A stretch of DNA of 64,000 nucleotides, taken from contig OU015567.1 in assembly GCA_907165135.1 (NCBI GenBank), positions 8,370,001-8,434,000 of the forward strand, in the 5' to 3' direction. The notes beneath the pieces are model-generated. The model saw nothing but the letters and a program-made list of their open reading frames with translations, was not told the origin of the DNA and made no database searches. Positions 12,691-58,739 of the stretch are shown here, piece by piece. Both the position numbers and the translations under genes were made by a program. How positions within the stretch are numbered: position 1 is the stretch's first letter; each line of letters begins with the position of its first letter. This DNA comes from Oikopleura dioica. Taxonomy: Eukaryota; Animalia; Chordata.

Positions 12691-13584
12691 TCAGCCCCAA
12701 AAAGCGACTTCAAAAGAAGATTGCTTTTTCGACAGACCTTGTGCCTCGTACTGGAGCTTGTTTAGTTGCTCTTGCTGGTCGGCTTCTTCTTCTTTGATTA
12801 ATTCTGAAATCAATCATCAGATATTATGAAAGCGAATCGAGAATTTTAGAAAATCGCTGCGAACTTTAGAAAACGTCAATAAAAAGTGGGTTTTCTTTCG
12901 TTCAATATTGAAGTTTTCGAGAATTTCAATAAGTGGACAGCTAATTTCCTTGTAAATTTGACCTTGTCGCTTGTATCTAAAATAAACTTACCGATGTAAT
13001 CAATAGTTTTGGAGAGGATCGTGGCTTTGGACAATTTCGTTGTTGTCAATTGATTCTTCCCTTCGACGCATGCAGGCACTGGAAATAGTCATTGAAACGC
13101 TTGTTTGAATAAGTTGTTTTATTAATTCGATATTTAGACATTTGTTTGAGCTGTTATTAGCAATGAATGAAAATGTAAATAAGTCCAGGTAGGAAAAACC
13201 AAGTGGCTCTTGATTAACGCTATGTCTGTACATTTGTACCCATGGAATCGATGCTTCGGTCTTAAAAGGTATTATGGCCGTGAAAATGCCACCTGTGGAG
13301 GCTATCAGCCACCCTTGTGGCATTGGATAACTTTTTGGATAAACCACGAACCTAAAACACCCAAGTCGTCGTAGCCACGTCGAATCGCATCACGCCGTTT
13401 CTTCTCCGCAGCGGTGTGAGCCTAAAGCAGACTTCATGACTCGATCCATAAATTTGCAAACAAATTAATGTGCAAGTCCAAGTTCGCACTTTTTAAGTCA
13501 CGGCTATTTTCGGTGAAAATATTTATATGATGATATTACCTGTTTGCGTGCCATTTCACGTGTCAGTAATTGCCCTAGCTCCAT
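12691..13584 (-). CDS. MLX: Max-like protein X (MLX)-family bHLH-ZIP transcription factor; 3' end uncertain
   Basis: Exons 13584-13540, 13421-13361, (13301-13293?), 13078-12992 and 12803-~12691 give ARKQAHTAAEKKRRDAIRRGYDDL...VPAC...KLSKATILSKTIDYIELIKEEEADQQEQLNKLQYEAQGL. This closely resembles the MLX bHLH-ZIP (AHTQAEQKRRDAIKRGYDDL...KLSKAIVLQKTIDYI). Confidence 0.85.
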
Positions 13585-13668
13585 ATTATCTTCGGTATTA
13601 TCGGGATGGTGTCTGGAACCGACAAAAAAATTTCGACAAATTTTGCGTAGGCGGCTACTCGGCTGCTG

Positions 13669-13703
13669 ATTGGCCGCTTAGCCGAATCCAGGCTTCTGAT
13701 TGG
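13669..13703 (-). promoter_or_regulatory. Pair of CCAAT boxes (NF-Y-type) upstream of the MLX-like gene
   Basis: TGATTGG occurs twice, 30 bp apart (ATTGG at 13669 and 13699), 85-120 bp upstream of the ATG at 13584. Confidence 0.5.
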
Positions 13704-13993
13704 TTGAAAATTTCGACGCAATAAATAAATATATTTATCTTCGCCTTTTTCTAGAGCTCTTTTACGAGTAACTTTCTCTATTTTCTTCGAAAAAAAAATC
13801 AAGCCCGGACCTTGATCATGTTGAATATCTTTCTCAGCGATCATATCGGCAGTGTCAAAACTCTTTTAAAAATAAAATAAACGTTTTAAATTTTAATTTT
13901 TGAAAAAAAATATATAAGGATGAGCTAACTGGTTATTAAAAGTACATTTCACAGACAGAAGAGAGTCTGTTGCGTAATAGAGAAGTACAGAAC

Positions 13994-14271
13994 TGTTGGG
14001 TTCTGTTGGAAGCCTCGATCTCTGCCCCGCGGCGCCGTGTAGGCGCATTCACCCCGCTCGAAAAGCGCGACCGAGCAATTCGGTCACATTCTGTTTTTCT
14101 ACCAGTTCAGGGCTGCACACTTTCCGATTTTTGAAATACAATGATTTATAGAGATTAACTACTTGACTATTTATTCAGCATGGCAAGTAGACTAGAATAT
14201 GATGGGTACATCGGGCGATCGGTGTTTACGCCGTAAGCCTGACAATAAGACTTCCAGCACCGAACCCATTA
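13994..14271 (+). repeat. 5' LTR
   Basis: Identical to 17792-18069 except T14164 vs C17962. Imperfect terminal inverted repeat TGTTGGGTTC/GAACCCATTA. Confidence 0.95.
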
Positions 14272-14272
14272 G

Positions 14273-14281
14273 TGGTGTCAG
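14273..14281 (+). promoter_or_regulatory. Primer-binding site TGGTGTCAG (tRNA-Leu type)
   Basis: Lies one nt after the 5' LTR and is complementary to ...CUGACACCA, the 3' end of eukaryotic tRNA-Leu(CAA/CAG). Confidence 0.75.
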
Positions 14282-14921
14282 TTAAATTAAAATTTTTTTT
14301 TCTAGTTCTAGCCATGACTAAACATGTTAAAATCAATAAAAAAAAAATATATATAAGAATAAGTGAAAAATAACGGAGAGAAGCCGCCCCCGGGAATCAA
14401 AGATAAATAAAATGAATATATTATAAAAGTTGACTTCAAAACAAAGATACGAACAAAAATACAAAAAAATTAAATGGTGGTTGGCCATAAGCCACCAGGG
14501 TGAGTTAGAGGGCCTGTTATAGGGCGGAAGCAAGCCGCAAAGCGGCTCCCCCTATAATATAAGACAAATCTGCTCATTCCGCCCGACGAAGGGTCCATAC
14601 TTTCGATCAGCAGAAAAATGATAAAACAATGATAAAGTCAACGGCGCTTGTGATGGTTCGTTCTAACTGTCGACAAATCTAGTTCGAACCACTCTGAATA
14701 AAACACATGGCGCTCACCGCGGATAGGGGCGATCATGATGTATGGCCAATGATAATTACAAAAGACAATGATAATGATATACAACGATAGATATAAAGCG
14801 CCAAGAGTTGGCGAAAGCCTTCTCTACCCACACACAGATCTCCCGGGCGGCAAAAGTTTCTCTTCGACCAATATGACACGCAACGACAATAATTAAAAAA
14901 AAAAAAAGAAAATAAAAATAA

Positions 14922-15722
14922 AAATATTATAATTTTTGGAAAGCAGTCCCGGTAGAACAGGATCATTCTCCTTCCGAACCTAACCTCCAACAACAAATAG
15001 CAGCTTTTTCACCTTTTTCTTCATCAACACTGGCTTCTTATCCATTGATGCTGCCGACGGGGCGAATATTCATAAGAAGCAATATGAATGTCTATCGTTA
15101 CTCTATTACTTTCGACAGCATCGACGGCCATCCAGCCAGTAACCGACTTGATCACAACCGGGGCGCTCCTTACAGGGGTGTACCGCGTCGTTATCATTCC
15201 GGTAATTTCTACCGCGGTCAACCATGATGCGCGAATTTTTACCGCAGTCAATCACGACATGCGAATTTCTATCCACGTGCTCAGTCTCGGGGCGCTTCTC
15301 GAGGCGGGTACAACGGTCAAGGTTACCGTTGCGATAATCACCACGGCAGCATTGGCTACAACAGTAACAACGGAAACGGTTACAACAATCACGGCAACGC
15401 TCACTACACTCAAAACGACTATGATTCCCGAACCTACGGCGTTAACGCCGCATTTGAGGAAGCATACGTGCTGATACCGTTCTCCGAACCAGAACAGATC
15501 ACTACTCAGCCTGAGCAGTTCACTCAAGCTGAAGAACGCGAACAACTTGATTACAGTTAGCCACAGTCAGAAAGCTACCCGGCCGCCTACCAGCAGCCAG
15601 ATGCCCATGACAGCGCTTACTACTCGGATCTCTCTTACACTAAGTACGATCCTAGCTACGCTGCTTACGACACTCAACTCTCATCGCACGCAGAAGCCGC
15701 TGATAAGCCGTCAAAAAACTGA
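14922..15722 (+). pseudogene. Decayed gag-like frame (RG/N/Y-rich)
   Basis: One frame reads RGAPYRGVPRRYHSGNFYRGQP*CANFYRSQSRHANFYPRAQSRGASRGGYNGQGY...DKPSKN* with internal stops at 15225 (TGA) and 15558 (TAG). It ends at the frameshift heptamer. Confidence 0.65.
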
Positions 15723-15745
15723 GTGCTTCCGGTGGTGCCACCGGA
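15713..15745 (+). promoter_or_regulatory. -1 programmed ribosomal frameshift signal (gag-pro junction)
   Basis: A_AAA_AAC (15713-15719) sits in the gag frame directly before TGA, followed by an 8-nt spacer and the perfect inverted repeat TCCGGTGG-TG-CCACCGGA (15728-15745). The -1 frame is the protease frame. Confidence 0.8.
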
Positions 15746-15820
15746 TAGAATTCTACTACACATTCCACCATCTTTAATCCGAATCCATTTGGCAATTCGG
15801 AAGCGACATATTTACCTGTC

Positions 15821-16135
15821 ATGTTCGGGTCAACCGGCATGTGGGTACCAACCTTATATGATCCCGGCTCATTCGTAAGTCTAGTACCCGAACGAGTCGT
15901 CCAGGACTTGAATTTAAAAATCGAGCCTACCGACCGAACAGCACGCTGCATTGTAAGCCACAATTCCTGTCTTGGTAAGGTAGTTTCCGACACCCGAGTC
16001 GGTACGAATTCACGCTGGCCGGCAACGGTCTGGTTCGTTTTACCTTTCCCTTCGTTTTTGATTCTGGGAAGGAACCCAATGCTCGAAAGATGCTCGAAAA
16101 TAAAGCAAAACTTGAATAACCAAACCATGTTCTGA
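15821..16135 (+). CDS. Retropepsin-like aspartic protease of the LTR element, probably non-functional
   Basis: TLYDPGSFVSLV (catalytic D-[TS]-G position, here DPG) and FLILGRN (ILGRD-type motif). An in-frame TAG at 15746 separates it from the frameshift site, and pol ends at 16135. Confidence 0.75.
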   Translation: MFGSTGMWVPTLYDPGSFVSLVPERVVQDLNLKIEPTDRTARCIVSHNSCLGKVVSDTRVGTNSRWPATVWFVLPFPSFLILGRNPMLERCSKIKQNLNNQTMF

Positions 16136-16441
16136 CTATATTGATGACGAACGTCTGAAGCACGACGATTCCTGAGATCATACTGTCTCGGGGCGTATCT
16201 CAGCCTCGGGGCGCAACTATCAGACAGTCTGATCGCATGAATCGACTCATTGATAATTCGATAGACAGTAAGAGTCGACAGCAAGGACGACAATTGTCAA
16301 TAAGCATGATTCATCACTCGTCTATTTATTTGTTCAATTGAACACAGTTTTGTCGATATTATTCTCTATCATTTATTCAAGTTATATTTTATCAATTGTT
16401 ATGCTGTTTCATTAGAATTTTAATCATTTTAGTGTTCAAGA

Positions 16442-17634
16442 ATGGTCGCATTTAATAACCATTCTTATTTAGACCTAGAAATGGAAGCCTCGACGCTCGA
16501 AAATAGCGTTCAAGACCTCGAAAATGAGCGCGACTTGCTGAAGCAGATGCTCAAAGAACTCGACGAGGAAGAATCGTCCTGTACAAGCAACGCCGGATGC
16601 TCGGCTCAAATTCCCTCGGAATCTGAACCGGTCATTCGACCTTCGACATACTCACCATCACGCTCGCAGATCCGAGCTCTCGCTACTCCGTCAACACACA
16701 GATCCGATCTTGACAGACGATTAGCAGAGATCTTCGGTCAGCCAAATGAGCCACAAAACGACGAGGAAGATTCAGAAGAAACGGACAGCTTTTTGACGAC
16801 CGGCAATGAATCGCCACCGCCAAAACATCCGGTACAGAGCCCAAAAGCCCTGTGCCGACCAATAAACCAGCTTATCACAGCACTCCGGATCGTTCGGTAC
16901 ACATTCCTAGTGAATCTGCCCCGAAAATTCGTTATCAAGAGGAGTTCGACGATGACGAAAAATCCGTCGCCTTAAATACCATAGACATCGGTTTCAAGGA
17001 TCTCCATCAAGACGAATACCAGGCGAAATTGCATCTCGCGAAGCAGGAAGACAAGCACGTTATGCACAAAGGCATGCTCGTGCCTACCAAGAAGACCAAC
17101 TTACGCGTGAAAATACTCCTCCACGAGCAGAATATTCTGCTGCAAAAATCCGCTTCCCTCATGAGCAAAAACTGCTTTCATCGAACCAGAGAATACCGTC
17201 AAATCGTCTCTTTGACCAAAAAGCTGCACGACCGATCGTCAAAATACGCTTATGCAGCCCATGTGATACTTTCCGGCTCAAAAGAAAGTATCAAAGAATT
17301 CATCCAGCGAGAGCGTAACGCTGAGAACGATGCTTCGTCGCAAAACGTCTCTCGGGGCGCCACTGGGACTTCCGGTGCCGCCTCGACCTCCGGTTACAAT
17401 CAGGGTAGTTCTGCACGTTCGGATATTACCCCGACCAATCGACCGCAGCCCATTTTCAACCGCGGAAGCGCTCGCTCCTCGGGCCCTTCTCGTGACCAAA
17501 ATACGGCTAGCCCATCGTCCGAATCTGGACATTCATCGCGCTACGGACCTAGCGGACGTGTGATGGATGCTCGTCGCTCTCGGGGCGGCCGCACTCGCCC
17601 GTATCAGCCTCGCGGCATGCGGGGACGATATTAA
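16442..17634 (+). CDS. Accessory gene of the LTR element, unknown function; two overlapping ORFs joined by a -1 shift
   Basis: ORFs 16442-16975 and 16852-17634 overlap in the -1 configuration. Joined, they give an N-terminal acidic coiled coil, a P/S/E-rich linker, a basic helical domain and an S/G/R-rich tail ending RGGRTRPYQPRGMRGRY. No signal peptide or TM segment is visible. Confidence 0.65.
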
Positions 17635-17782
17635 GTCACTGCGATCATTGGACTTGCCAATTTCTGAATGCCACCTGCGAATTTACAATTCCAAATTTCT
17701 TCACTCTATTTGCTTAGGACTACTGCCTTGGAATTATCTTCACTGCTCAATGCTTAGGACCGCCGCGGACAGAATATCTCGG

Positions 17783-17791
17783 CTCGGGGCG
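17783..17791 (+). promoter_or_regulatory. PPT-like element CTCGGGGCG
   Basis: G-rich tract immediately abutting the 3' LTR. Confidence 0.6.
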
Positions 17792-18069
17792 TGTTGGGTT
17801 CTGTTGGAAGCCTCGATCTCTGCCCCGCGGCGCCGTGTAGGCGCATTCACCCCGCTCGAAAAGCGCGACCGAGCAATTCGGTCACATTCTGTTTTTCTAC
17901 CAGTTCAGGGCTGCACACTTTCCGATTTTTGAAATACAATGATTTATAGAGATTAACTACTCGACTATTTATTCAGCATGGCAAGTAGACTAGAATATGA
18001 TGGGTACATCGGGCGATCGGTGTTTACGCCGTAAGCCTGACAATAAGACTTCCAGCACCGAACCCATTA
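17792..18069 (+). repeat. 3' LTR
   Basis: 277/278 identical to the 5' LTR; followed by TSD GAAC. Confidence 0.95.
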
Positions 18070-18699
18070 GAACTGTACTTTTGAAAAGCGCGCATGGGAA
18101 ATTCCTTACGAAGAAAATATTCAAGAAATTTTAATCATTACGTTTGGATCGTTTTTTTTTCTTTCGCAGGGAAGGGTCGTCACCTTACAAGATTCCTTGG
18201 CGACGCATGTCCCCGTAAGTCCACCCGAGTGACAACATTGCCAAAGGAATTTTCGAATTCTTCGTCCGTCGACTGACGCGGCTGATTTTGTCTGTTTCTG
18301 TGGAAGTTTTACGCTAAAATGAGCAAAAAGAAGAAAAGTCGGAAACAAGCTGATCCAGAGCAAGGCTCACCTTCCGACGCATAAATCGGTTTGCATAGTT
18401 TTGAGATATTTCGACCAAAATATGTAAATCGCGTTTGGCCTGATGATGTCACAAAATTGACGCGGCGGATCATACGGTTAGATTTTATGCGATAATCTTC
18501 GTCAAAATTTCGGGCCTTGACGCAATTCAATTTAGAGCTTGCTAAAGCCGCGCATTATCGAACCGCGAGTGAGTAGCAGTTGTTGTTTTTTTGTGCTGCT
18601 GTAGCTGGCACTCGGGGTCGACATTAATCGGGCGTACTCTATCAGGTTAAAAAACGCAAGTGAATGATTTCTAAATTGAACAGAAAATTGAAAGCCCCA

Positions 18700-35256: not shown

Positions 35257-38003
35257 AGACTCTGTACTAATTATTTTCGTGAATCATGATTCATGAATCA
35301 TGATGATCTCTTAATTTGTTATCACTTCTTTTTCAATAACATTCGTTACAAGTGCTACCGTACCGAAAAAGATGATATTTCATCATCTCTGCCCAGTTTT
35401 TCGCGCTTGTTCTGGGGCTTTGGAATGGAAGCAAACAGGATAAATAAACGTGACGTCTCTAAAAAATAGGATCCGTGGTCGTCGTGCAAACGCGCTCCGT
35501 CTCGCTTGTTACAAAATCTTCCAAAAGCTAGTTAAGAGCGCGGTACGCCCTTGACCAGCCGGTTCACACTCAATTTTACCGATCTTTTGCCTTTGGATAG
35601 GAACAGTAACAAGCTCGGTTCCACGTCAGATCCGATCTACAATATCGTCAAAAATCGACAAATTCGAGGTCGAGCGTGGAATGCGACAAACGCGGCTAAC
35701 CACTAGGGTTAGTTGTTTTCCACATTCTTATTACCATCAAAAACAACTCACTCTTTCTCAGAAAAATAAGAAAACAATTGACCTTGAAGTAAGCGCAATC
35801 CAGCTATCTAAAGTGTTCAAAAAAGCGGGTAAAACTGTGACCATGATCCCTTATGCTGCGATCAGCGCGTGACGGAAATGAGAAATTTCAAGGTCGAAAT
35901 GTTGGATGAGCTTTTTGCTCATAATTTCGTGAATGTTAGACAAATCCAATTTCAATATTGCTCACTTGTTAAGCAAAAGCTCAAAGCGACGAACAAAAAT
36001 GCCGAATATTACATCTACTCTGACGAAACTACTCATCTAGGACTCTTGAAAGAGAAATGATCGGTTCAAAGAAAGGGAGAAAAGTTCATGAAATGGAAAG
36101 CCGACCGGTCAATTAGCAAGGGCTTCTGACCTGATCGCACGTTAAGAGCGCGCATCGCACATATCCGGCGTTGATGAAGGCACATTGCTTCCAAATGGAG
36201 CCCATTCCAAGAGTAACAAAGAACAGCATAATTGAAATGCTCGAGTGGATGCTCCGTTGTCAGGGAGGAGCTTGACCACGTCCCAATCCAGGCGGATTAA
36301 ACACGTCAGTCTCATTACTCCGTTCATCTCCGAGGAGAGGCCTTGTCTTTCTGATTGGCTGGGGCTCTTCTTTGAGCATTTTGATTGGTCGTTATTCTTT
36401 GAAAACTGACTGACGTTAGCAACACTAGTTTATGCGCAATAAACTAAAGGATAATTTACTTGCATAACAATAAAAAGATGTTTTCGTATTTTGGAACATC
36501 ACAGTCATGAAATTATGGCATCTCATGAGAAAAAAAAAACGAGGGAGAAGCGTAAAAAATATCATTAACAACGTCAAGCGTAGACATTAATACGATTGGC
36601 CCCTCTAAGTAACCTAACAAGCGCATAATTTCTCGAGCTGTTCGAGTTTCCTTGAACAGCGCACTTTGCTTCACGTGAGAGACGTTTCGAGAAAAAAATG
36701 TCGAATGTTTTTTCGAAAGACTCAAAATGCTTGAAATTTAAAAAATTTAAAAACCTTTGCTAGATTGAGTCCCGCGAAAGTGGCCTCACTTATCGGCGAA
36801 AAATTCACTTCCAGTTCAATTTTAAATTAGTGACTATTTTCTAAAGCTAAAGGGATTTGAAATGAAAGAATAACTCGGTCATTATTATAGAATCAAAACT
36901 CGCGATGGTCACTTTTGATGGTAAACCACTTATCCAGTAAATTCGATAAGGAGACGCTCAACTGTAATCAAATCTGAGCGGCTAACATTAAAGAAAGAAC
37001 CGGTTAAACCATAACTTTGAAAGCAAATCCTGGACTTACTGAAACAAAACAACGTTCAAAATAGAAACCAAAAAGGGACGAGGAACGTCATATGCTAAAT
37101 CAATCAACTGCACCACGTCAATACAGTATTTCGCAACGGTTAATCTGATTTCAAGCCTGGACTCCTGGAGCATGACGTATTCACGGAGAAGTTTGGTGGT
37201 GAATTCCGAGTAGTCGAACAAAGAAGACTTTTATTTCAATTTACAACCTTTACCAGGGTCCGACAGCTTACAAGAGAAACCTGAGTCAGGGTCCTGAAGG
37301 CTGCTTACAAACAAAAAAAGAAAGCAGATTTTAGTTGTCTAGTCCCCACGTCAGAAAATTGTCCGAGATGTCGTTGCATCATCATCAAACACGTAAGATA
37401 GTCGAAGAACAAACACTTCCACGATAAGAAGAAGATCTCACGTGGTCCAGACGAGCGGACATATGACGAAAAACTAGATTTTCTTACAACCTCCACGTTA
37501 TTGAGAATGATCTGATTCCCAGCTGCTTCTTTTTCAAGAGTCAGAAAAATTGAATCTCGGAAGAAAATTTGCTCAAAATCAGCCGCAAGCGCTAAAAATT
37601 TTATGAGCGAGATGGAACCGTACTAAAAAGATAAATGCTTGGCATGTTAAATTTTTCTCTCTTCTTTCTGGGGCATTTCGTTCGTTCGATAACACACCAA
37701 GAATGTCATTACCGGAGTATTCTGCGATTAGGGTGAGAAAGTATTTTCTTTTTCGACTTGAAGGAATTCTGCTGATTTGGATTCTAGAGGGCAGCAGGAA
37801 TTTCTCACTGCCGGCAATTTTCAACAATTGTTCGCGTGAAATGCTAACTGAGGGCTTTGAATATGTGTTCGGCATTTTCAAATGACTCTTTGTTCTTAAA
37901 AACGAGCAAAAATCAGAATCTTCGAAAGACAGTTTGCTTTCTTTTTCGTTCAAATGTCAAACAGCATGTCGCAAACGCTCAGATAATCCTTCGATGATCC
38001 TCG

Positions 38004-39864
38004 GATGATTTCAAAAAACTTTTTGCGCGGCCGGAAATCATGAAAAAAGTGCTAGTGCAGTTTTGTCAGGCTCGTCGAGACGAGTCGATTGGTATAGGTC
38101 ACTCTTGAAAATTTTAAGGATTTACCGGTTAACCGGCTGATTACCGGAAATCACGTTGTCAGCTCCCGTTTTTGTTCTAGTCGTCGGATTTTCATTTTTG
38201 AAGGGTCAAAATGATCCTTATGATCAGGGCTACTGTAGCCTCTGAGATGAGCCCCATATCTCAACTCCTGCCGAGCTTATCACTAAAAGTTTGAATTTTA
38301 CGCACTTTTTTCACTTTGAAAGTTCATAACGTAAAATTTTTACGGTAAATACTAATAAATCTTTTGCGGTTTTGATAGACAATTAAAAATTAATAATACC
38401 CACCGTTCAAAACCTTGTAACCAGCCGGTAAAAAAGCGCTGAATCAAAATTATGCCCTCGAAAAGCACTTTTTTGATTAAATTTTTCTCCTCAAAGATCG
38501 GAACTAAAAGCGGGACTTTTTTGCGCAAAATCAATGCTTTTTCTTTAGAAAGAGGATTTTTCGGAGAATAAAGGGGTCTTTTTTAATTTTGGATTCCATA
38601 ACTGGAACTTCTTGTATCACCTTTTCCACTGCTCGCTTTTTTCTCAGGTTGGCCAAGTTTGATTCTTGTAGACATTTGATGCCTTCTAGGACATTTAAGA
38701 TGTTTTGTCGAGCCCCCGGATGAGCAAATCTCTTCTTGGAAAACTCGGCTTTTAGGAAACTACAGTTAACCCTAGCCGGCCAAAAATGATTTTTCTCGGG
38801 TACCGGTCAAGATACTCCATATTTGGCGCCAGGGATTTACGGTAAATCATTTACCTTCAAATAAGACTATACAAATGATAAAGGTCAAATTATACGGTCT
38901 TGGGGAAATACATTAAACCCTGCCTATCAAGATGCAATAGAAAAAAGCTAGCTCTGTAGCAAGTTATGAAACATGTCACAGTGCCCTCCTGAAGCCCAAG
39001 AAGTGCTCCATATCGGAACGCCCGAAGAGGACAAGCCCAAGACTAAATTTATGATTGGCTCATTGCCGACGCAAGATAGCTCAGCTACGATTGTTAGAAG
39101 CTATGTATGGGGCTACGTAGATACTAGAATTTTAGGAGGATTGGCGTCTTAAAGCCGGGATTCACGGTGGAGACGCGAGAATCGACGTTTGAACCACCAG
39201 GACTTTGACGTCTGAAAAGTAAGGATCGAAGTTGTTGAAGCCGGGATTGAAGTGAGTGTAGCCAGGATTTACTGTGGAGTATTCAATAAAATAAAATTAT
39301 ATGATCAATCAATATAAATTAATTCACATCTCTGTTGGGCAAAGTTGGGCAAACAGATATCTAGTTCCGTTCTTTGAGGAGAAAAATTTAATCAAAAAAG
39401 TGCTTTTCGAGGGCATAATTTTGATTCAGCGCTTTTTTACCGGCTGGTTACAAGGTTTTGAACGGTGGGTATTATTAATTTTCAATTGTCTATCAAAACC
39501 GCAAAAGATTTATTAGTATTTACCGTAAAAATTTTACGTTATGAACTTTCAAAGTGAAAAAAGTGCGTAAAATTCAAACTTTTAGTGATAAGCTCGGCAG
39601 GAGTTGAGATATGGGGCTCATCTCAGAGGCTACAGTAGCCCTGATCATAAGGATCATTTTGACCCTTCAAAAATGAAAATCCGACGACTAGAACAAAAAC
39701 GGGAGCTGACAACGTGATTTCCGGTAATCAGCCGGTTAACCGGTAAATCCTTAAAATTTTCAAGAGTGACCTATACCAATCGACTCGTCTCGACGAGCCT
39801 GACAAAACTGCACTAGCACTTTTTTCATGATTTCCGGCCGCGCAAAAAGTTTTTTGAAATCATC
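38004..39864. mobile_element. Non-autonomous DNA element with 503-bp terminal inverted repeats (foldback-like), 1861 bp
   Basis: 38004-38506 is the reverse complement of 39362-39864 (2 mismatches noticed). Both sides are flanked by TCG (38001-38003 and 39865-39867). The ~855-bp core is non-coding. Confidence 0.85.
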
Positions 39865-42218
39865 TCGGAATCAATCAGCTTAGTCCAAATGCATGCCAAA
39901 AATGTTTTGACAAATAAACGTGGAGAGACCAACACTCGAAAACGGCATCCTAAAACTAGGAAAGGGAAATATTTTTTTCCTGGAGAAGAATTTTTAGTTG
40001 AGCGAAAAGTTTCGATCAAATTTGGATGATCGAAATTCGATTGATTTTGTTTGGAAGGCGCCTGAAAGCTCAAAAATAATGGAAAAAGCACGAATCTCAG
40101 AATGGGATTGACCTTGATCTGTTGTTAAATGAACTACTGTTCTCTTTTTCTTTTTGAGAAAAAAGATATGGGAACGTGTGCGACAAGCATCGGGACATTT
40201 GCTTTGAGTTTTAAGCTGTTGGAAAAAGGAAATATTTAACTTGTACGCGGTCTGCACGATTAAACGGGCAAGTATTTAGAAGATAACATATTTTTTATAA
40301 AATGTTTGAACAGAAAATTCGAAGAAAATCTAATAAAACTTATCTGTATTCAAAAATTGTTAATTTTCATCGTATTCTTTCATCTTCAGAAGGAGCAAGA
40401 AGCCAGACAAAGAGGGCAGAAAGTGAACTGATGGAACCGTAATTCTTAGGTAGAGGTTTTTTATCGAGACAGTAATTGTAAGCCTGGCGGGGTCTTTCTA
40501 CCAAGTAATTCTACTGAGCCTCTAGATAAATTTCCAAAGAATTCTATAAAAGAAAATTTTGCTCCAGTCTAACAGGGCATTTCGTAAATACATTACGAGC
40601 TTTGTATTGTCTCTTTGATGGTACGTACTGCTCTATTTTGACCAAAATAAACCAAAAAAAATCGTTGAACAAATTTACCAGTAACAACAGGAAAAGTTTT
40701 ACAACTAAACCAATCTGCGGCTTATCGATTTGTTTCCGACTGAATATTTCTGGTCTGGCGATAAGCAATTGAACGCAAAAATAATTCACACGGACATGGC
40801 ATCTAATTTTGGAGTAACTGAAAATAGAAATTCGCCGTTAGGATACTCAAAACTCCATCGAATTCAACTTTTGAGCCTTATCATTTTAGCGGATCTCTTA
40901 TCGTTATCTTACAAGAGCCTGAAATTATGCCATTCGAGATTTCCTTCGGGAAATTGCCGCCTAGAGAGGAGCCTTCTAGCACTATGTTCGACCAGATCCA
41001 AAGTGCTTCGTCAAAAGACTGTAATTCTTCTTTGGGGGGTCTGGTCTGGAATGAGTTGATTCCGCGTTTCAACAAACATCTCCAAGTCGCGCGTATTATT
41101 CCGCAAAAAAAGGTTATATTAGTCTTCTCCGAGTTCTGCATCAGCGTAAAAATAATTTCATGTTGGACCGTACGTTGGATTTCCGTGGATCAGAAATTCA
41201 ATATTCACTCAAAAATATCACCATTTCGCCATTTCAGGTAAAACAGGAATAGAAGTAACGTGAAGGCACCTGTATCTTCGGGGACTGACATGATGCGATT
41301 AAGGTGATACTTTGGATGATTTTAGCGTGTATTAAAGAGAGTCTTCCCACGCTCTTTATAAAAATTTTCTCCTCTCGCAGCCGAAAATCGCTTCTTTTGA
41401 GAAATCATTCGATTCTAGCACTGACGTGTCCGGTAGAACACTTTTCGTTTCTCTACGACCAAGATAAGGCAAATTCAAGCTCTGTTCTACATTTTTTCTT
41501 TTTGGCCTTTTTCAATTAAGCTCGTTAGCAAAGAAGCTCTGCGGTCGAAAGATAGCGATAGTAGGACTACCAGGACAACGAGGTTGGTTTAATTAATATT
41601 CTAACACTGATGGAAGTAAAATTGGAGATATTGGCCCGCTACAGGAAGGCAAAAAGGAACAAGAAGGTGATAAGCGAAAATCTATAGCGCGATAAAGTGT
41701 ACCCGCAAGTACTCCAATTCATCGCGGAAAATGGAAAGTTTATCTGCTCAATTTTGCACATTCGACATTTACCCAGGAAAGAAGCCGAACATTCTTGTTG
41801 AAAAATTAATTGAAAAGCCGATCTTTTTGAAGACAAACTAAACGACACAACAAGAAACAGAACCCTTCATTTGTAATTATCTCAAATGAAGTGGGCTCCT
41901 AAGAAGACGTCGCGGAATCAAAGAATGAACCGAGTTTTCCCGGTTCGCGCATTTCTACGAGATTCCTCAAAATGTGAACCGAAATCGTTGCGGGCGGATC
42001 TGAAAGACGCTTCAATAATATTTTGGAGAAACGGGCTCTATCACGTTTTTCTAGGGAAGATCGAGCCATGGCATTTTATAAATATCCAGCCAAGAATTCA
42101 GAACTAACTGCTGCTTCTTTTTATGGAATCATGATTTCCAAACATAAAAACGTGGCAATCATAAGGGACTTGGCAAAGATTTATAAATAAAATTGATAAA
42201 TCAGGACCCCCGGAAACT

Positions 42219-54052: not shown

Positions 54053-54318
54053 CTGAAACCAAGAAAAATCAATTCAAGATTCATTTTCAGGAGGCTTTTT
54101 AGTTGCAGACAGATTCAATCTCCATTCAAGATGATCAGATGTAAGAAGGATCATCTCTTTTTTAGTTTGAACTTAGAAATCACGTGATTAGGGGAAACAG
54201 AGATCAGGAAACGGGATTCTTCCACTGTCTTCCTTACTCTCTGCCCCTATCACACGTGACTTATAGATATTGAATAATATATCTTTTTTGTTGACTTCGT
54301 TAATAGATCATATGATTT

Positions 54319-54361
54319 GTATCAAACGTTTTCGTTTATTGGATAAACTTCATCAGGATAC
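54319..54361 (-). ncRNA. Minimal type I hammerhead ribozyme (inverted copy)
   Basis: Exact reverse complement of 56156-56198. Confidence 0.8.
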
Positions 54362-54492
54362 TAAAGTAAATATGAACGAAAAGGAACAGAGGAAAAAGAA
54401 TACTTTTATGTTGAGAGAGCAGTGTGAAATTGCTAACTGAGGAAAACAAAAACAAAATCAAAAAATATGGCTGTTTTTAGTCGAGCGCCAAG

Positions 54493-55998
54493 GTGGCCCA
54501 AGGTGAGCTTAAATTCTCTTGTTCTTCTACTAAAGAATTTAAAAGTGCGTTTACTAAAATCTCACCTCAAATAACATCTGAACATTCTATTTGGAGCGCA
54601 GATGTCGTGTCAATGTATCCATCAATTGACAATTCAAAAGCTATTAACGTTATTATCGATATTCTTTATAAAAATCCTCTTCGATATTTTAGCCCCGAGG
54701 ATCTTCCAGACGGCACAATCAGTTATTTTCCCCCTAAAGATGTTTTTCGATCTATTCTTGTTTCAGTCTTACAAAAGTTCACCGCATTTTCCACGCAAGA
54801 AGGTTACTATAAACAGAAATTCGGGTGCTCAATGGGCTCCCGACTCGCCCCTCTAGTGGCGAATATTTACATTTCTAGCCTGGAAAGTGAATTTCTTACA
54901 ACTGAAATTAAAAAGGGTAATATACTGTTTGTTAGTCGTTACGTCGACGACTACTGTTTTGTAACCAGAACAAGTGCCAAAAAACGAATTTTTAATTGTC
55001 TCAATAAGTTTGATCCGTCCATAAAAATGACCTGTGAAGATATGAAAGACGACTGTCTCCCTTATCTTGATACTTGCATTAAACTTCATGACAACCAATA
55101 TCACTTATTCTTCTATGAGAAAAGTAACAAAAATGACATTCTTCAAAACTTTCGTACTGGAATCGCTCCCCTCAACAAGAAAATATCAACGCTTACCGGC
55201 GAAATCTATCGCAGAAATAATACAACCTCATGTCCGTATGCGTTGAATATTGCTCTTGAACAGTTAACTGATCGCTTTCTTAAGAACTCATATCCGTTTC
55301 ACCTCATAAAACGTAAAATCAATGAAATTAAAAATAATAATTTCGAGCCACTGAAACGTGATGATTCTAAAGTAGTGAAAAAGTTCAACTTATGTTTAGA
55401 TTTTACTAGTGAAAGATGCTACTCTATTGGACTTAGTCTTCAAAAACTCTTCAGAAAAGTAACACCTTCCTTTTGTCTAGTCGTTAGTTGGAAAACCATA
55501 CGACTCGAAAGAGCCCTAGGCAAATTTCTTAAAAGAGTCCCCGAAAAATACGACTTGTGTGATCTGATTTACTCTTGGAAATGTGATTGTAAAGCGCAAT
55601 ACATTGGTCAGTCCAAACGAAGAGCTGGTGTTCGTTGGATTGAACATGTTAATTCAAACAACCAGAATAAAACTGCTTCTTCTTCCATCTTCAAACATTT
55701 TTCCACTTGTAAGACCTTTCAAAAAAGCTATGATTCTTACATCAGTGAGCCAAGCACAAAAAATCTCACGAGTCAATACAAGACTAAAACTGCCCAATCG
55801 AAACTTGCTTTAGAGTCCTTTCACTCTAAAAATCCTCCGAAAATTCGTTACAAATTTTCAAAAATGACTTTGCTTTAAAATATTTTGATGTTCTACAAAC
55901 TAATCTTACTTACGAGAAACGTTGAACAATTTCTTATTTTACTGCATAGACCCTCCCTTAATGAACAATCTGATTTCAAACAGTTCAAAACTTTTTAA
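54493..55998 (+). pseudogene. Penelope reverse transcriptase / GIY-YIG endonuclease ORF, N-truncated and disrupted near the C-terminus
   Basis: RT motifs SADVVSMY, QKFGCSMGSRLAP, RYVDD and LPYLD; endonuclease LIYSWKCDCKAQYIGQS..R..EH. A stop at 55876 precedes the conserved tail VEQFLILLHRPSLNEQ (55921-55998). Confidence 0.9.
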
Positions 55999-56155
55999 TT
56001 TAGTCGAGCACTGTTTTGGGCCACCTTGGCGCTCGACTAAAAACAGCCATATTTTTTGATTTTGTTTTTGTTTTCCTCAGTTAGCAATTTCACACTGCTC
56101 TCTCAACATAAAAGTATTCTTTTTCCTCTGTTCCTTTTCGTTCATATTTACTTTA

Positions 56156-56198
56156 GTATCCTGATGAAGTTTATCCAATAAACGAAAACGTTTGATAC
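56156..56198 (+). ncRNA. Minimal type I hammerhead ribozyme in the Penelope pseudo-LTR
   Basis: Stem I GTATC/GATAC; core CTGATGA(A); stem II GTTTAT-cca-ATAAAC; GAAA; palindromic minimal stem III AACGTT; predicted cleavage after T56193. Confidence 0.8.
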
Positions 56199-56343
56199 AA
56201 ATCATATGATCTATGATATTGAATAATTTACAGATTGAAGCGTTTCTGTAGTGGTAAAAATGATTCGTAAAATGATGTTAAAATGCGATAAATGATTCTT
56301 AGGAAGGTCATTTCTTTAAAATTCTTAGAAGTCTATCTAGCAG

Positions 56344-57636
56344 CAGAGTTCAAAAACCCCGGGCACAGGCGGGCGCGGGCTCGGAATGGAAAAATGGTCG
56401 GGGGCTCAGGCGGGCGCGGGCACAAAATTGATGAAGCTCGGGGGCTCAGGTGGGCGCGGGCCCGAAACTGAAGGTGCCCGCGGGCTTAGGCGGGCGCGGG
56501 CAACAAATTCAAGGTGCCCGCGGGCTCACGCGGGCGCGAGCCCTTGCCCTCCTGCTCGCGCCCGGCCGCGCCCGCGAGCACAAAGGGACCTAATTTCAAT
56601 CGGTATTTTCAGCTTCAATTCGATGACTTGAATAAGTTTGCCGTCAAAAAATATGCGAAAATGATAAAAAAAGTTCGGAAATTCGCGAAAATCTTGATTT
56701 TAGACGAAACTTTGAGCCAATTTTTTGGGGTCATTTTCAAAGAAAACTCTTTTATGGGTTACCGAAAAAAGTCTCAATTTTTATTTAAATTTTCAAAGTT
56801 TTCGGCGAAAATTTCTTCTTCTTTTACGAAAACTGGCCGCGGCCCTGACGGGCTCGGGCGCCTGAGGCCGCGAGGCCCGGGGGCTCAGGCGGGCACGGTG
56901 TAATCATAAAAACTGGCCGCGGCCCTGACGGGCTCGGGCTGGGCTCGGCAAACTGAGCTGTGTAAAAACCTGTCACAGGTCCTGTTTCCTGTTTTTGGGG
57001 AATCTGCCTGAGTACCTGTGTAAAATCGGGTAATAATTTGGGCCTGTCCTGTGTACCTGTGTAAAATTAAGGGGAAAAAATTTCTTTAGCTGTCCCTGTT
57101 CCTGTTTCTGTCTTAAACAGGCCTGTGTTTCCCGCTCAGGTCCTGACCATAGACAGGTTCCTGTGTAACCAGGTCAGGAACTGCATAAGTCAGGGAAAAT
57201 ATTAAAAGAAATCAATCGCGAAAGACGTAAAAAAGAGTTCAACAATCAAAATAACCGATAAATTCGCGTCTTTTTGTTTCTTTGTAATATTTTTTCTCAG
57301 AAATATCCTGTTTTTTGTCCTGTCACAGGGCCTGTTTCCAGTTTTCTGACCTGCTCAGACCTGTTCACGCAGGCCCTGACCTGTGTAACCTGTTTGATAA
57401 GCTGTGTAAAAAAACCTGTCTAAAATCAGGATATTTTTGCTTCCTGACCTGTGTACCTGTGTAAAATATGGGACAGAAATTTTTTTTCCTGTTCCTGTGT
57501 CTGTTCCTGACACAGTTTGCCGAGCCCAGGGCTCGGGCGCTTGAGGCCGCGAGGCCCGGGGGCGCAGGCGGGCAGCGTGCCCGCGCCCGGCCGGCCGCCG
57601 CTCCCCTGCCCGGGAGCCGAAAATTTTTGAACTCTG
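56344..57636. mobile_element. hAT-type MITE (outer element) with GC-rich subterminal repeats
   Basis: TIR CAGAGTTCAAAAA/TTTTTGAACTCTG; 8-bp TSD TCTAGCAG (56336-56343 and 57637-57644); repeated GCGGGCGCGGG motifs. Confidence 0.9.
56939..57529. mobile_element. hAT-type MITE nested inside the outer element
   Basis: 17-bp TIR CTGGGCTCGGCAAACTG/CAGTTTGCCGAGCCCAG; 8-bp TSD GGCTCGGG (56931-56938 and 57530-57537); many CCTGT subterminal motifs. The uninterrupted form of the target motif is visible at ~56841-56870. Confidence 0.88.
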
Positions 57637-58739
57637 TCTAGCAGTACAATTGGTCTGTCCACCGAGCACAAATTTGGAACTGGCTTGAATTCGATGAACT
57701 CGCTCCCCGTGCAAGAGAACCTCTCTTTCCGTGGGAGCCCCAAAACCGCAAAATTTACAACCCCACATTGGCGTTACAGGATGGACAGGAACAGGAGCTC
57801 CTTTGAGCTTCTCGGAAGCTTTTGAGGAGAAAGAGTCAGGAACGATATATACAAGCGAGGAGAAGATTTCGGCGGCGGGGTGATCTCCCAGGTGCACTCC
57901 CAGCGTCGCCGTCTTCGAAGTTCGAAGCGGGCAAATCAAGCAGCGGAACTTATTCATGAAGGGATCAGCGTGTTTCTTTGCGCGGCAGTGGTCTTTTAAG
58001 TTCTTGAGCGGGTGCACATCTCGTAAATGCATCTACAAAGATAAAATGAGAAAGAATTCTCAAAAATATAATCAAACAGGGGCTCTAAAAGGCTCGTTTC
58101 TTTTCTACAAAACCTAACCTGGATAGTGCTGGAAACCGATGGAATAAAATTTGGGCAAAGAAAACATCGAAAGCTCGCTTCGTTGGCTTGAAGTGCTTTT
58201 TCCTGTTCCTCTTCTTCTGAAAGGGCTTTTTTGATCATCACCTTCTTCATCGTTTTCTTCCCTTTTGAGTCTTTATGACCGTGCTTTATATGTACAGTAA
58301 TGTCGGCTTTGTCGAGAAAAACCCGGCCACACGGTTTTCCATCTGGATTGAGCGTTGTGCACTTCCAGCCTTAAATTCGAGTTGAAAATTAGGGGACGGA
58401 AACAAAGGGATGAAAACCTATCTGGCCATCGTTAGGGATTTGAGGTAGTTGCGGAGGGGATTGTACAGGAGGAGATGTTCGATCTCCATTATTGTTGTTG
58501 AGTCGTTCACTCTTTTTTCGGCCGTTTTGAGAACCTGCATTTTCAGTTTTCGGCGGTCGACCTCGCTTCTCAATCTTCCTGTTTGGCATTGTAGAAGCGT
58601 GGCTGACCGATGCATAATGAAGATCCTCTTGCCGAAAGATCTTTGAAGGAGCGGGATGAGGCTGCGTTGGAGGACGCTCAGATTTGCGTTTCGTTTTTAA
58701 CCGAAAGCTGGGCATGACTGCGGATTTTCCACCAAACAT
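57355..58739 (-). CDS. C2H2 zinc-finger protein (~4 fingers); C-terminus now runs into the MITEs
   Basis: Exons ~58739-58419, ~58370-58119 and 58033-. Fingers CTTLNPDGKPC...HIKHGH, CFLC...HLRDVH, CLIC...HLGDH and CKFC...HGERVH; AT-hook-like KRGRPPK. Confidence 0.8.

What the first reader, a model, noticed from the sequence alone, without database searches (positions are those of the whole stretch)
13994..18069. Freshly inserted LTR element that has lost RT/RNase H/integrase and carries an unknown accessory gene instead
Seen: the LTRs differ at 1 of 278 nt and the TSD is intact, yet gag has two internal stops, a TAG blocks the protease frame and pol ends right after the protease. The space where RT-RH-IN (or env) would lie holds a nearly intact ~390-codon gene. 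Known: LTRs are identical at integration, so this copy is very young. Inference: the gag-pro decay predates the insertion, so the element is copied in trans by a helper while keeping its cis signals (PBS, PPT, leader hairpins) and a cargo gene. That would make it a parasitic or satellite retroelement family that may supply its own trans-acting product.
Basis: partly seen in the sequence, partly recalled or inferred. Interest (0 to 1): 0.85.

Follow-up and report, generated by a model that had tools for sequence, protein, structure and literature searches.

The report
Crippled tunicate retrotransposon keeps unknown gene
A recently inserted jumping gene in the plankton animal Oikopleura lacks the genes it needs to copy itself, so it was likely copied by a related element, and it keeps an apparently intact extra gene for a protein of no recognised family that is predicted to bind nucleic acid.

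Summary
The element is real. It is a 4,076-bp LTR element in Oikopleura dioica with 278-bp LTRs (1 difference, TG..TA ends), a 4-bp target-site duplication, PBS, structured leader, -1 frameshift signal and retropepsin. RT, RNase H and integrase are absent, there is no room for a capsid, and gag-pro has three stops. Read contigs confirm the stops and the pol loss. The extra gene's single frameshift is missing from 2 of the 3 runs covering it, so the gene is probably intact. Its protein is not Env. It has a coiled-coil-like start, a confidently predicted helical domain (33% identical, without gaps, to unnamed metagenome proteins) and a basic tail. Three stops are too many for the time since insertion (P 6e-5 to 0.008), so copying in trans is supported. 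A satellite family is not shown: run X1 shows one hemizygous copy, no same-LTR helper, and one diverged sibling. The PPT motif CTCGGGGCG recurs six times, twice inside the extra gene, so that gene is probably the parent family's own third ORF, kept rather than swapped in. Precedent: rotifer TelKA2n. Verdict: new variant of a known kind.

The parts
13990..13993 (+). Left target-site duplication (GAAC)
   Evidence: Tor TSDs are 4 or 5 bases (PMC4402516)
13994..14271 (+). 5' LTR, 278 nt, TG..TA ends with an 8/10 terminal inverted repeat
14273..14281 (+). Primer-binding-site-like TGGTGTCAG, 1 nt after the LTR; tRNA-Leu assignment is recalled, not tested
   Evidence: no tRNA gene in the window to compare
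14272..14921 (+). Non-coding leader: G+C-rich hairpins between A-rich spacers, closed by a long-range stem (about 14372-14396 with 14839-14866); likely packaging and translation signal
   Evidence: fold z -5.9, 0 of 20 shuffles as stable; 200-nt window 14394-14593 z -3.6
14922..15722 (+). gag-like 3' remnant, 266 codons, RG/N/Y-rich, stops at 15225 and 15558, no capsid or CCHC motif found
   Evidence: a sibling element matches 15198-15243
15713..15745 (+). Predicted -1 frameshift signal: A AAA AAC in gag register (15713-15719), 8-nt spacer, 7-bp hairpin (15728-15745)
   Evidence: sequence; hairpin (z -1.7, 10 of 200 shuffles as stable, so modest)
15746..15748 (+). Stop codon in the -1 (pol) frame, just before the protease
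   Evidence: present in X1, X2 and X3 contigs
15749..16135 (+). Retropepsin (aspartic protease) frame, 128 codons, DPG and ILGRN motifs; pol ends here
   Evidence: ESM Atlas first hit 0.95, 177 of 256 features shared, 10 of 10 named hits in one clan; Pfam Peptidase_A2B only E 0.18
16187..16213 (+). Two tandem copies of the PPT motif CTCGGGGCG, about 50 nt after the end of pol
16214..16441 (+). A+T-rich spacer with a 19/23 copy of an LTR stretch (16308-16330 vs 17951-17973) and a T-rich tract ending TTTTAG 9 nt before the ATG; candidate internal promoter and/or splice acceptor
   Evidence: 0 of 300 shuffles reach 19/23; length chosen after seeing the match
16442..17634 (+). Extra gene (ORF3), about 400 codons: coiled-coil-like start, acidic Ser/Pro linker, helical domain (about 16981-17337), basic RG-rich tail; no membrane segment. 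One frame break in the window inside the overlap 16810-16975, probably an assembly error
17783..17791 (+). PPT-position motif CTCGGGGCG abutting the 3' LTR; further exact copies at 15286, 16187, 16205, 17351, 17579
17792..18069 (+). 3' LTR
18070..18073 (+). Right target-site duplication (GAAC)

Best explanation
This is a recently inserted, non-autonomous LTR element of Oikopleura dioica, likely a deletion derivative of a Tor (Ty3/gypsy) family, that was likely copied in trans by an autonomous relative and has kept what is probably its parent's own non-envelope third gene. Shown: LTRs, TSD, PBS-like site, structured leader, protease, loss of RT-RH-IN, the stops, the repeated PPT motif and a conserved folded domain in ORF3. 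Inferred: RNA made from the 5' LTR is packaged through the leader by a helper's Gag. It is then reverse-transcribed from a tRNA at the PBS and from the CTCGGGGCG tract, and integrated by a helper integrase that accepts TG..TA ends. ORF3 would be made from a subgenomic RNA (internal promoter as in Tor4b, or the acceptor before its ATG). It would be a soluble, oligomeric nucleic-acid-binding accessory protein (RNA chaperone or export factor, or anti-silencing factor) acting on the element's own RNA or DNA.
For: Youth: 1 of 278 LTR sites differ and the TSD is intact. X1 depth is 72.6 inside, 153.9 on the LTR and 155.4 on a flank contig, and a contig begins exactly at 18069, where filled and empty alleles would merge. 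This hemizygous pattern is typical of active Tor copies (PMC4402516). Decay before insertion: 3 stops against 0.07-0.41 expected, plus two large losses. A diverged sibling is present in X1 and X2 (depth 48 and 21.5). It matches the gag tail (15198-15243) and the protease start (15779-15882) on one contig and runs on beyond both; the loose ends still read as related coding sequence. ORF3 is native to the element: CTCGGGGCG occurs 6 times on the + strand of the 3.5-kb interior, 0 times in the other 59.9 kb, shuffle mean 0.01 and maximum 1 in 1000; two copies lie in ORF3, where they use 2 of its 3 CGG codons out of 25 Arg codons. The spacer before ORF3 resembles the pol-env spacer with an internal promoter in Tor4b. 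ORF3 is a real protein: phmmer hit E 8.5e-6, 38 of 116 residues identical without gaps to P0004, which also ends in a basic low-complexity tail, and a model with pLDDT 83.8 and pTM 0.70. It is not Env: maximum 19-residue hydropathy 0.49 and 3 Cys in the two pieces scanned.
Against: No autonomous element carrying this ORF3 was seen. The sibling did not match the LTR or ORF3 at 80% identity, and its RT/IN content could not be read. No element with the same LTR shows in X1. Without RT or IN, Tor membership rests on host, layout and protease only. The genomic context of P0002-P0004 is unknown (ENA contigs of 599-1924 nt). Nucleic-acid binding is inferred from charge and RG repeats alone. X4 agrees with the window at the ORF3 break.
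Confidence: 0.6

Rival explanations
1. Self-standing satellite family: the gag-pro remnant is long-dead baggage shared by many copies in the population, and ORF3 is kept by selection because it acts in trans to hijack or tune a distantly related helper (packaging bias, anti-silencing).
For: Several independent lesions accumulated before this insertion. ORF3 has 0 stops against 3 in gag-pro. No same-LTR helper was found and the only sibling is diverged. Tor insertions are rare and polymorphic, so one copy per animal does not exclude a family (PMC4402516).
Against: One copy in X1, and X2-X4 come from the same study and show the same sequence, with X4 crossing the same left junction. 0 versus 3 stops has P 0.13. 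The frameshift signal and the protease frame are still well preserved, which suggests a recent origin from an autonomous parent.
Confidence: 0.2
2. One-off dead-on-arrival or post-insertion decay: an autonomous ORF3-bearing element was damaged during its last reverse transcription (template switches, a burst of errors or editing) or afterwards, with the LTRs homogenised by gene conversion.
For: Single hemizygous copy. Repeated motif copies flank the pol break and could favour template switching.
Against: Three stops and two large losses in one round, or in the time marked by one LTR difference, are unlikely (P 6e-5 to 0.008 for the stops alone). The TSD and LTR ends are perfect.
Confidence: 0.13
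3. Transduced cargo: ORF3 was captured from a host or viral gene and replaced RT-RH-IN, as in transducing retroviruses or maize Bs1 (recalled).
For: ORF3 begins about 300 nt after the pol break, behind an acceptor-like TTTTAG, and has homologues of unknown context.
Against: The only O. dioica protein found in three searches is this locus's own chimeric gene model, so no host paralogue was seen. ORF3 carries two exact copies of the element's PPT motif.
Confidence: 0.07

Closest known systems
Tor elements of Oikopleura dioica, especially Tor4b (PMC4402516; parts 1-4 of 6 of the text read, supplement not readable)
   Same: Host, near-identical LTRs, 4-5 bp TSD, hemizygous low-copy insertions, a third ORF behind a spacer after pol with a candidate internal promoter
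   Different: Described third ORFs are transmembrane Env glycoproteins, and described copies have intact ORFs. This one lacks capsid, RT, RH and IN, and its third ORF is soluble and basic. The word 'non-autonomous' does not occur in that paper's main text.
TelKA2n of the rotifer Adineta vaga (PMC5408684; passages and section 3.6 read)
   Same: [quoted passage not shown] The same paper shows many non-env ORF3 types, including coiled-coil ones.
   Different: [quoted passage not shown] This element lacks the N-terminal/capsid part, keeps the protease, has an unrelated ORF3, and is so far one copy.
TR-GAG and ORF-less non-autonomous LTR elements of plants (PMC8704663; passages read)
   Same: Transposition in trans without pol, sometimes with no obvious same-family helper
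   Different: TR-GAG keeps an intact gag. Here gag is dead and the intact gene is ORF3.

Membership tests
LTR retrotransposon (Ty3/gypsy, Tor group) | Direct LTRs flanked by a 4-5 bp target-site duplication | tested here: met
LTR retrotransposon (Ty3/gypsy, Tor group) | Canonical TG..CA LTR ends | tested here: not met
   Ends are TG..TA with an 8/10 inverted repeat; whether described Tor LTRs end this way could not be read (supplement closed)
LTR retrotransposon (Ty3/gypsy, Tor group) | tRNA primer-binding site after the 5' LTR | tested here: inconclusive
   TGG-starting 9-mer 1 nt after the LTR; tRNA-Leu match recalled; no tRNA gene in the window
LTR retrotransposon (Ty3/gypsy, Tor group) | G-rich tract abutting the 3' LTR | tested here: met
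   CTCGGGGCG at 17783-17791; short and not purely purine
LTR retrotransposon (Ty3/gypsy, Tor group) | gag followed by a retropepsin | tested here: met
   Protease by Atlas; gag by position, frameshift signal and sibling match only
LTR retrotransposon (Ty3/gypsy, Tor group) | RT-RH-IN order and Pol phylogeny, which define Ty3/gypsy and the Tor groups | not testable with these tools
   The domains are absent from the element, and the sibling contig could not be fetched
Env-bearing Tor3a/3b/4b | Third ORF with a C-terminal transmembrane segment and seven conserved cysteines | tested here: not met
   Maximum hydropathy 0.08 and 0.49, 3 Cys in the two pieces against the features
Non-autonomous LTR family (TelKA2n/TR-GAG kind) | Lacks RT and IN but keeps LTRs, PBS, PPT and leader | tested here: met
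Non-autonomous LTR family (TelKA2n/TR-GAG kind) | Inserted after losing coding capacity | tested here: met
   Poisson test; assumes no LTR gene conversion and no mutation burst in the last round
Non-autonomous LTR family (TelKA2n/TR-GAG kind) | Several loci share the same lesions | tested here: inconclusive
   One hemizygous copy in X1; 4 holder runs, all from one study; other populations not searchable
Non-autonomous LTR family (TelKA2n/TR-GAG kind) | An autonomous partner shares LTR ends and PBS | tested here: inconclusive
   No LTR match at 80% in X1; one diverged sibling whose ends and pol could not be read
TR-GAG | Intact gag as the single ORF | tested here: not met
   gag is a remnant with two stops

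The most novel reading that the evidence does not exclude
A satellite retroelement lineage of larvaceans whose only living gene is a new nucleic-acid-binding protein. The protein recognises the CTCGGGGCG motif repeated along the element's own RNA and uses it to win packaging or reverse transcription by distantly related Tor helpers. The repeated motif would double as several plus-strand priming sites.
Probability: 0.15. Interest if true: 0.75.

Novelty: new variant of a known kind. Interest (0 to 1): 0.45.

Why it matters
O. dioica is the model for how a very compact animal genome purges mobile DNA, and its Tor elements are described as intact, recently active and env-bearing. This copy indicates that defective Tor-like elements are still moved in trans, and that Tor-like elements carry a second kind of third gene, a soluble protein of no recognised family. 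It gives a concrete accessory protein and a candidate binding motif to test. It also shows that the public gene model at this locus is a chimera of transposon pieces. The general pattern (a non-autonomous LTR element keeping ORF3) is already known from rotifers, which caps the surprise.

Tried and rejected
No whole genome is held for this window, so copy number comes from run contigs only.

Homologue searches. Three word-based searches found nothing beyond this locus's own gene model: ORF3 C-half, 1 of 409 candidates; protease among longer proteins, 0 of 55; ORF3 profile among longer proteins, 1 of 957, which even missed P0004. These are weak negatives. Locus scans found no relative: metagenome contigs, viral contigs (48, 91), prokaryote genomes (85).

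Family and fold searches. Pfam gave no match above cut-off for any piece of the element. The PDB sequence search for the protease gave only chance hits. The Atlas had no usable hit for the ORF3 core, which shows neither absence nor novelty. The single-sequence model of the ORF3 C-half was poor (pLDDT 46.8) and its fold search meaningless. The good core model had no match at E 0.001 in BFVD or PDB and a best VIA Z of 6.0 (rmsd 3.6, 64 aligned) among generic helical bundles; no family is thereby excluded, and a new fold is not shown.

Expression. No RNA holder was listed. X8 laid only 16 partial reads, all under 90% alike even on host flanks, and X5 laid 0, so expression was not tested.

Artefacts and alternatives set aside. 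Loose ends in X2 at 14840 and 14961 looked like a longer gag variant but fall at GATC sites and are 27-30 nt, so I read them as ligation chimeras. A 5-bp TSD with 277-nt LTRs also fits the letters but breaks the terminal inverted repeat. The 214-codon minus-strand frame 15652-16296 has no Pfam match and is treated as a shadow frame. Programmed readthrough of the stop at 15746 cannot be excluded but would not rescue gag.

Other blanks. Rfam found nothing in the window. Five look-ups of earlier findings gave nothing that bears on this.

Literature. Searches listed no description of a non-autonomous Tor element or a non-env Tor ORF3. Volff et al. 2004 was not seen, and the supplement of PMC4402516 could not be searched; either could describe one.
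Full report
Host and setting. The only named protein matching the extra gene is a gene model of Oikopleura dioica chromosome 2. Its pieces are letter-identical to parts of the gag-like frame and of both frames of the extra gene, so it is this locus's own chimeric model and the window is O. dioica. LTR elements of this species are dominated by Tor (Ty3/gypsy) elements (PMC8008620, passages). The element sits about 270 nt from a very high-copy short repeat.

Anatomy. The LTRs are 278 nt and differ at one site; a 4-nt duplication flanks them. The ends are TG..TA and form an 8/10 inverted repeat. One base after the 5' LTR comes a PBS-like TGGTGTCAG; its match to tRNA-Leu is from memory. A 650-nt leader folds far better than shuffles (z -5.9, 0 of 20). 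Next is a 266-codon gag-like frame with two stops and no Pfam match, with no room upstream for a capsid. It ends at an in-register A AAA AAC slippery site followed by a hairpin (modest, 10 of 200 shuffles as stable). The -1 frame has a stop right after the hairpin, then 128 codons that the ESM Atlas places among retroviral aspartic proteases (0.95), though Pfam gives only E 0.18. pol ends there. After a 300-nt spacer the extra gene runs from 16442 to 17634, followed by a G-rich tract abutting the 3' LTR.

Are the lesions real? Four DNA runs of one study hold the element; X1 may be the source of the assembly, so none is independent population evidence. In X1 a single 3,580-nt contig spans the interior with 0 substitutions and 1 gap, and X2-X4 contigs also cross the pol break. 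The stops and the pol loss are therefore real. The one gap lies in the overlap of the two frames of the extra gene and is shared by X1 and X2. X4 agrees with the window, but X3 and X4 contigs carry many gaps elsewhere. The extra gene is thus probably an intact frame of about 400 codons (2 of 3 covering runs).

Copy number. X1 depth is 72.6 inside, 153.9 on the collapsed LTR and 155.4 on a flank contig. By hand, depth in bins 13915-14126 (96.6) and 17731-17942 (31.1) is fully explained by those two contigs, so no other LTR at 80% identity or more was laid; 45 rows of the contig table were not shown, and a filter drops some records. A flank contig begins exactly at 18069, the merge point expected if an empty allele exists. 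This is one hemizygous copy, the usual state of active Tor insertions, which are rare and polymorphic (PMC4402516). One diverged sibling is present in X1 and X2: it matches 15198-15243 and 15779-15882 on one contig and continues on both sides below the 80% cut-off. It is a candidate helper, but its pol and ends could not be read.

Did decay precede insertion? One LTR difference gives 0.0018 substitutions per site since insertion (0.010 at the upper 95% bound). That predicts 0.07 (0.41) nonsense changes in gag-pro; 3 are seen, P 6e-5 (0.008). With the two large losses on top, the donor was very probably already unable to make Gag or Pol, so the last step was done in trans. This assumes no gene conversion between LTRs and no mutation burst in the last round. 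The contrast with the extra gene (0 stops in an equal target) has P 0.13, so selective retention of the cargo is not shown.

The extra gene. It has no membrane segment and few cysteines, unlike Tor Env. It starts with a coiled-coil-like stretch (weak Pfam hits to unrelated coiled-coil families). An acidic linker and a basic helical domain follow, then an RG-rich basic tail. A search of 1.84 billion representatives gave 2 hits at E 0.001: the locus's own model and P0002 (E 8.5e-6). P0002's cluster has 3 unnamed ENA members; P0004 aligns over 116 residues at 33% identity without gaps and also ends in a basic tail. With these, the core folds at pLDDT 83.8 and pTM 0.70. The protein is therefore real and conserved. 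Its function is inferred from charge and layout only: most likely an oligomeric nucleic-acid-binding accessory factor.

An overlooked feature. The PPT-position motif CTCGGGGCG occurs 6 times on the + strand of the interior, never on the - strand and never in the other 59.9 kb; shuffles give 0.01 (maximum 1 in 1000). Copies lie in the gag tail, twice just after the pol break, twice in the extra gene, and at the PPT. In coding copies it reads Ser-Arg-Gly with the otherwise rare CGG codon, so it seems kept at the nucleotide level. It may serve as extra plus-strand priming sites or as a protein-binding site. Either way it marks the extra gene as a long-standing part of the element rather than a fresh capture. 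The spacer before the gene holds a 19/23 copy of an LTR stretch (0 of 300 shuffles, length chosen after the fact) and an acceptor-like TTTTAG 9 nt before the ATG. These match the two routes known for Tor env: an internal promoter in Tor3b/4b and splicing in Tor3a.

Comparison and verdict. It works like a non-autonomous LTR element that kept its third ORF, as TelKA2n does in rotifers (PMC5408684, section 3.6); plant TR-GAG elements show such trans-mobilisation directly (PMC8704663, passages). It is not an env-bearing Tor, and Tor membership by Pol cannot be tested. My searches listed no non-autonomous Tor or non-env Tor ORF3, but Volff et al. 2004 and the supplement of PMC4402516 were not seen. 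Papers consulted without bearing: PMC13524379, PMC2774666 and PMC13269885 (passages). New variant of a known kind, interest 0.45.

Noticed in passing
window 13590-13720: Very high-copy short repeat with inverted ends (contig depth about 60,000 in X1 against about 150 for unique DNA), probably a MITE, about 270 nt left of the insertion.
   Followed up: no
window 54303-56214: 465-codon RT frame (Pfam RVT_1, E 5e-6, below cut-off) between perfect 199-nt inverted repeats; looks Penelope-like with a GIY-YIG-like end (recalled). Penelope-like elements are said to be almost absent from this assembly.
   Followed up: partly
window 37995-38506 and 39362-39873: 99% identical 510-nt inverted repeat pair about 850 nt apart; no Rfam match at gathering score.
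   Followed up: partly
window 15088-17400: The public gene model at this locus (P0001) is a chimera that splices gag-frame pieces to both frames of the extra gene; it is an annotation artefact, not a host gene.
   Followed up: yes
window about 12876-13088, minus strand: Exon with a bHLH-like stretch (label recalled) about 900 nt left of the insertion, so the element lies upstream of or within a host transcription-factor gene.
   Followed up: no
window 57355-58032, minus strand: 225-codon frame with several C2H2-like zinc-finger patterns (weak Pfam hit, E 0.09) beside short repeats at 56361-57574.
   Followed up: no
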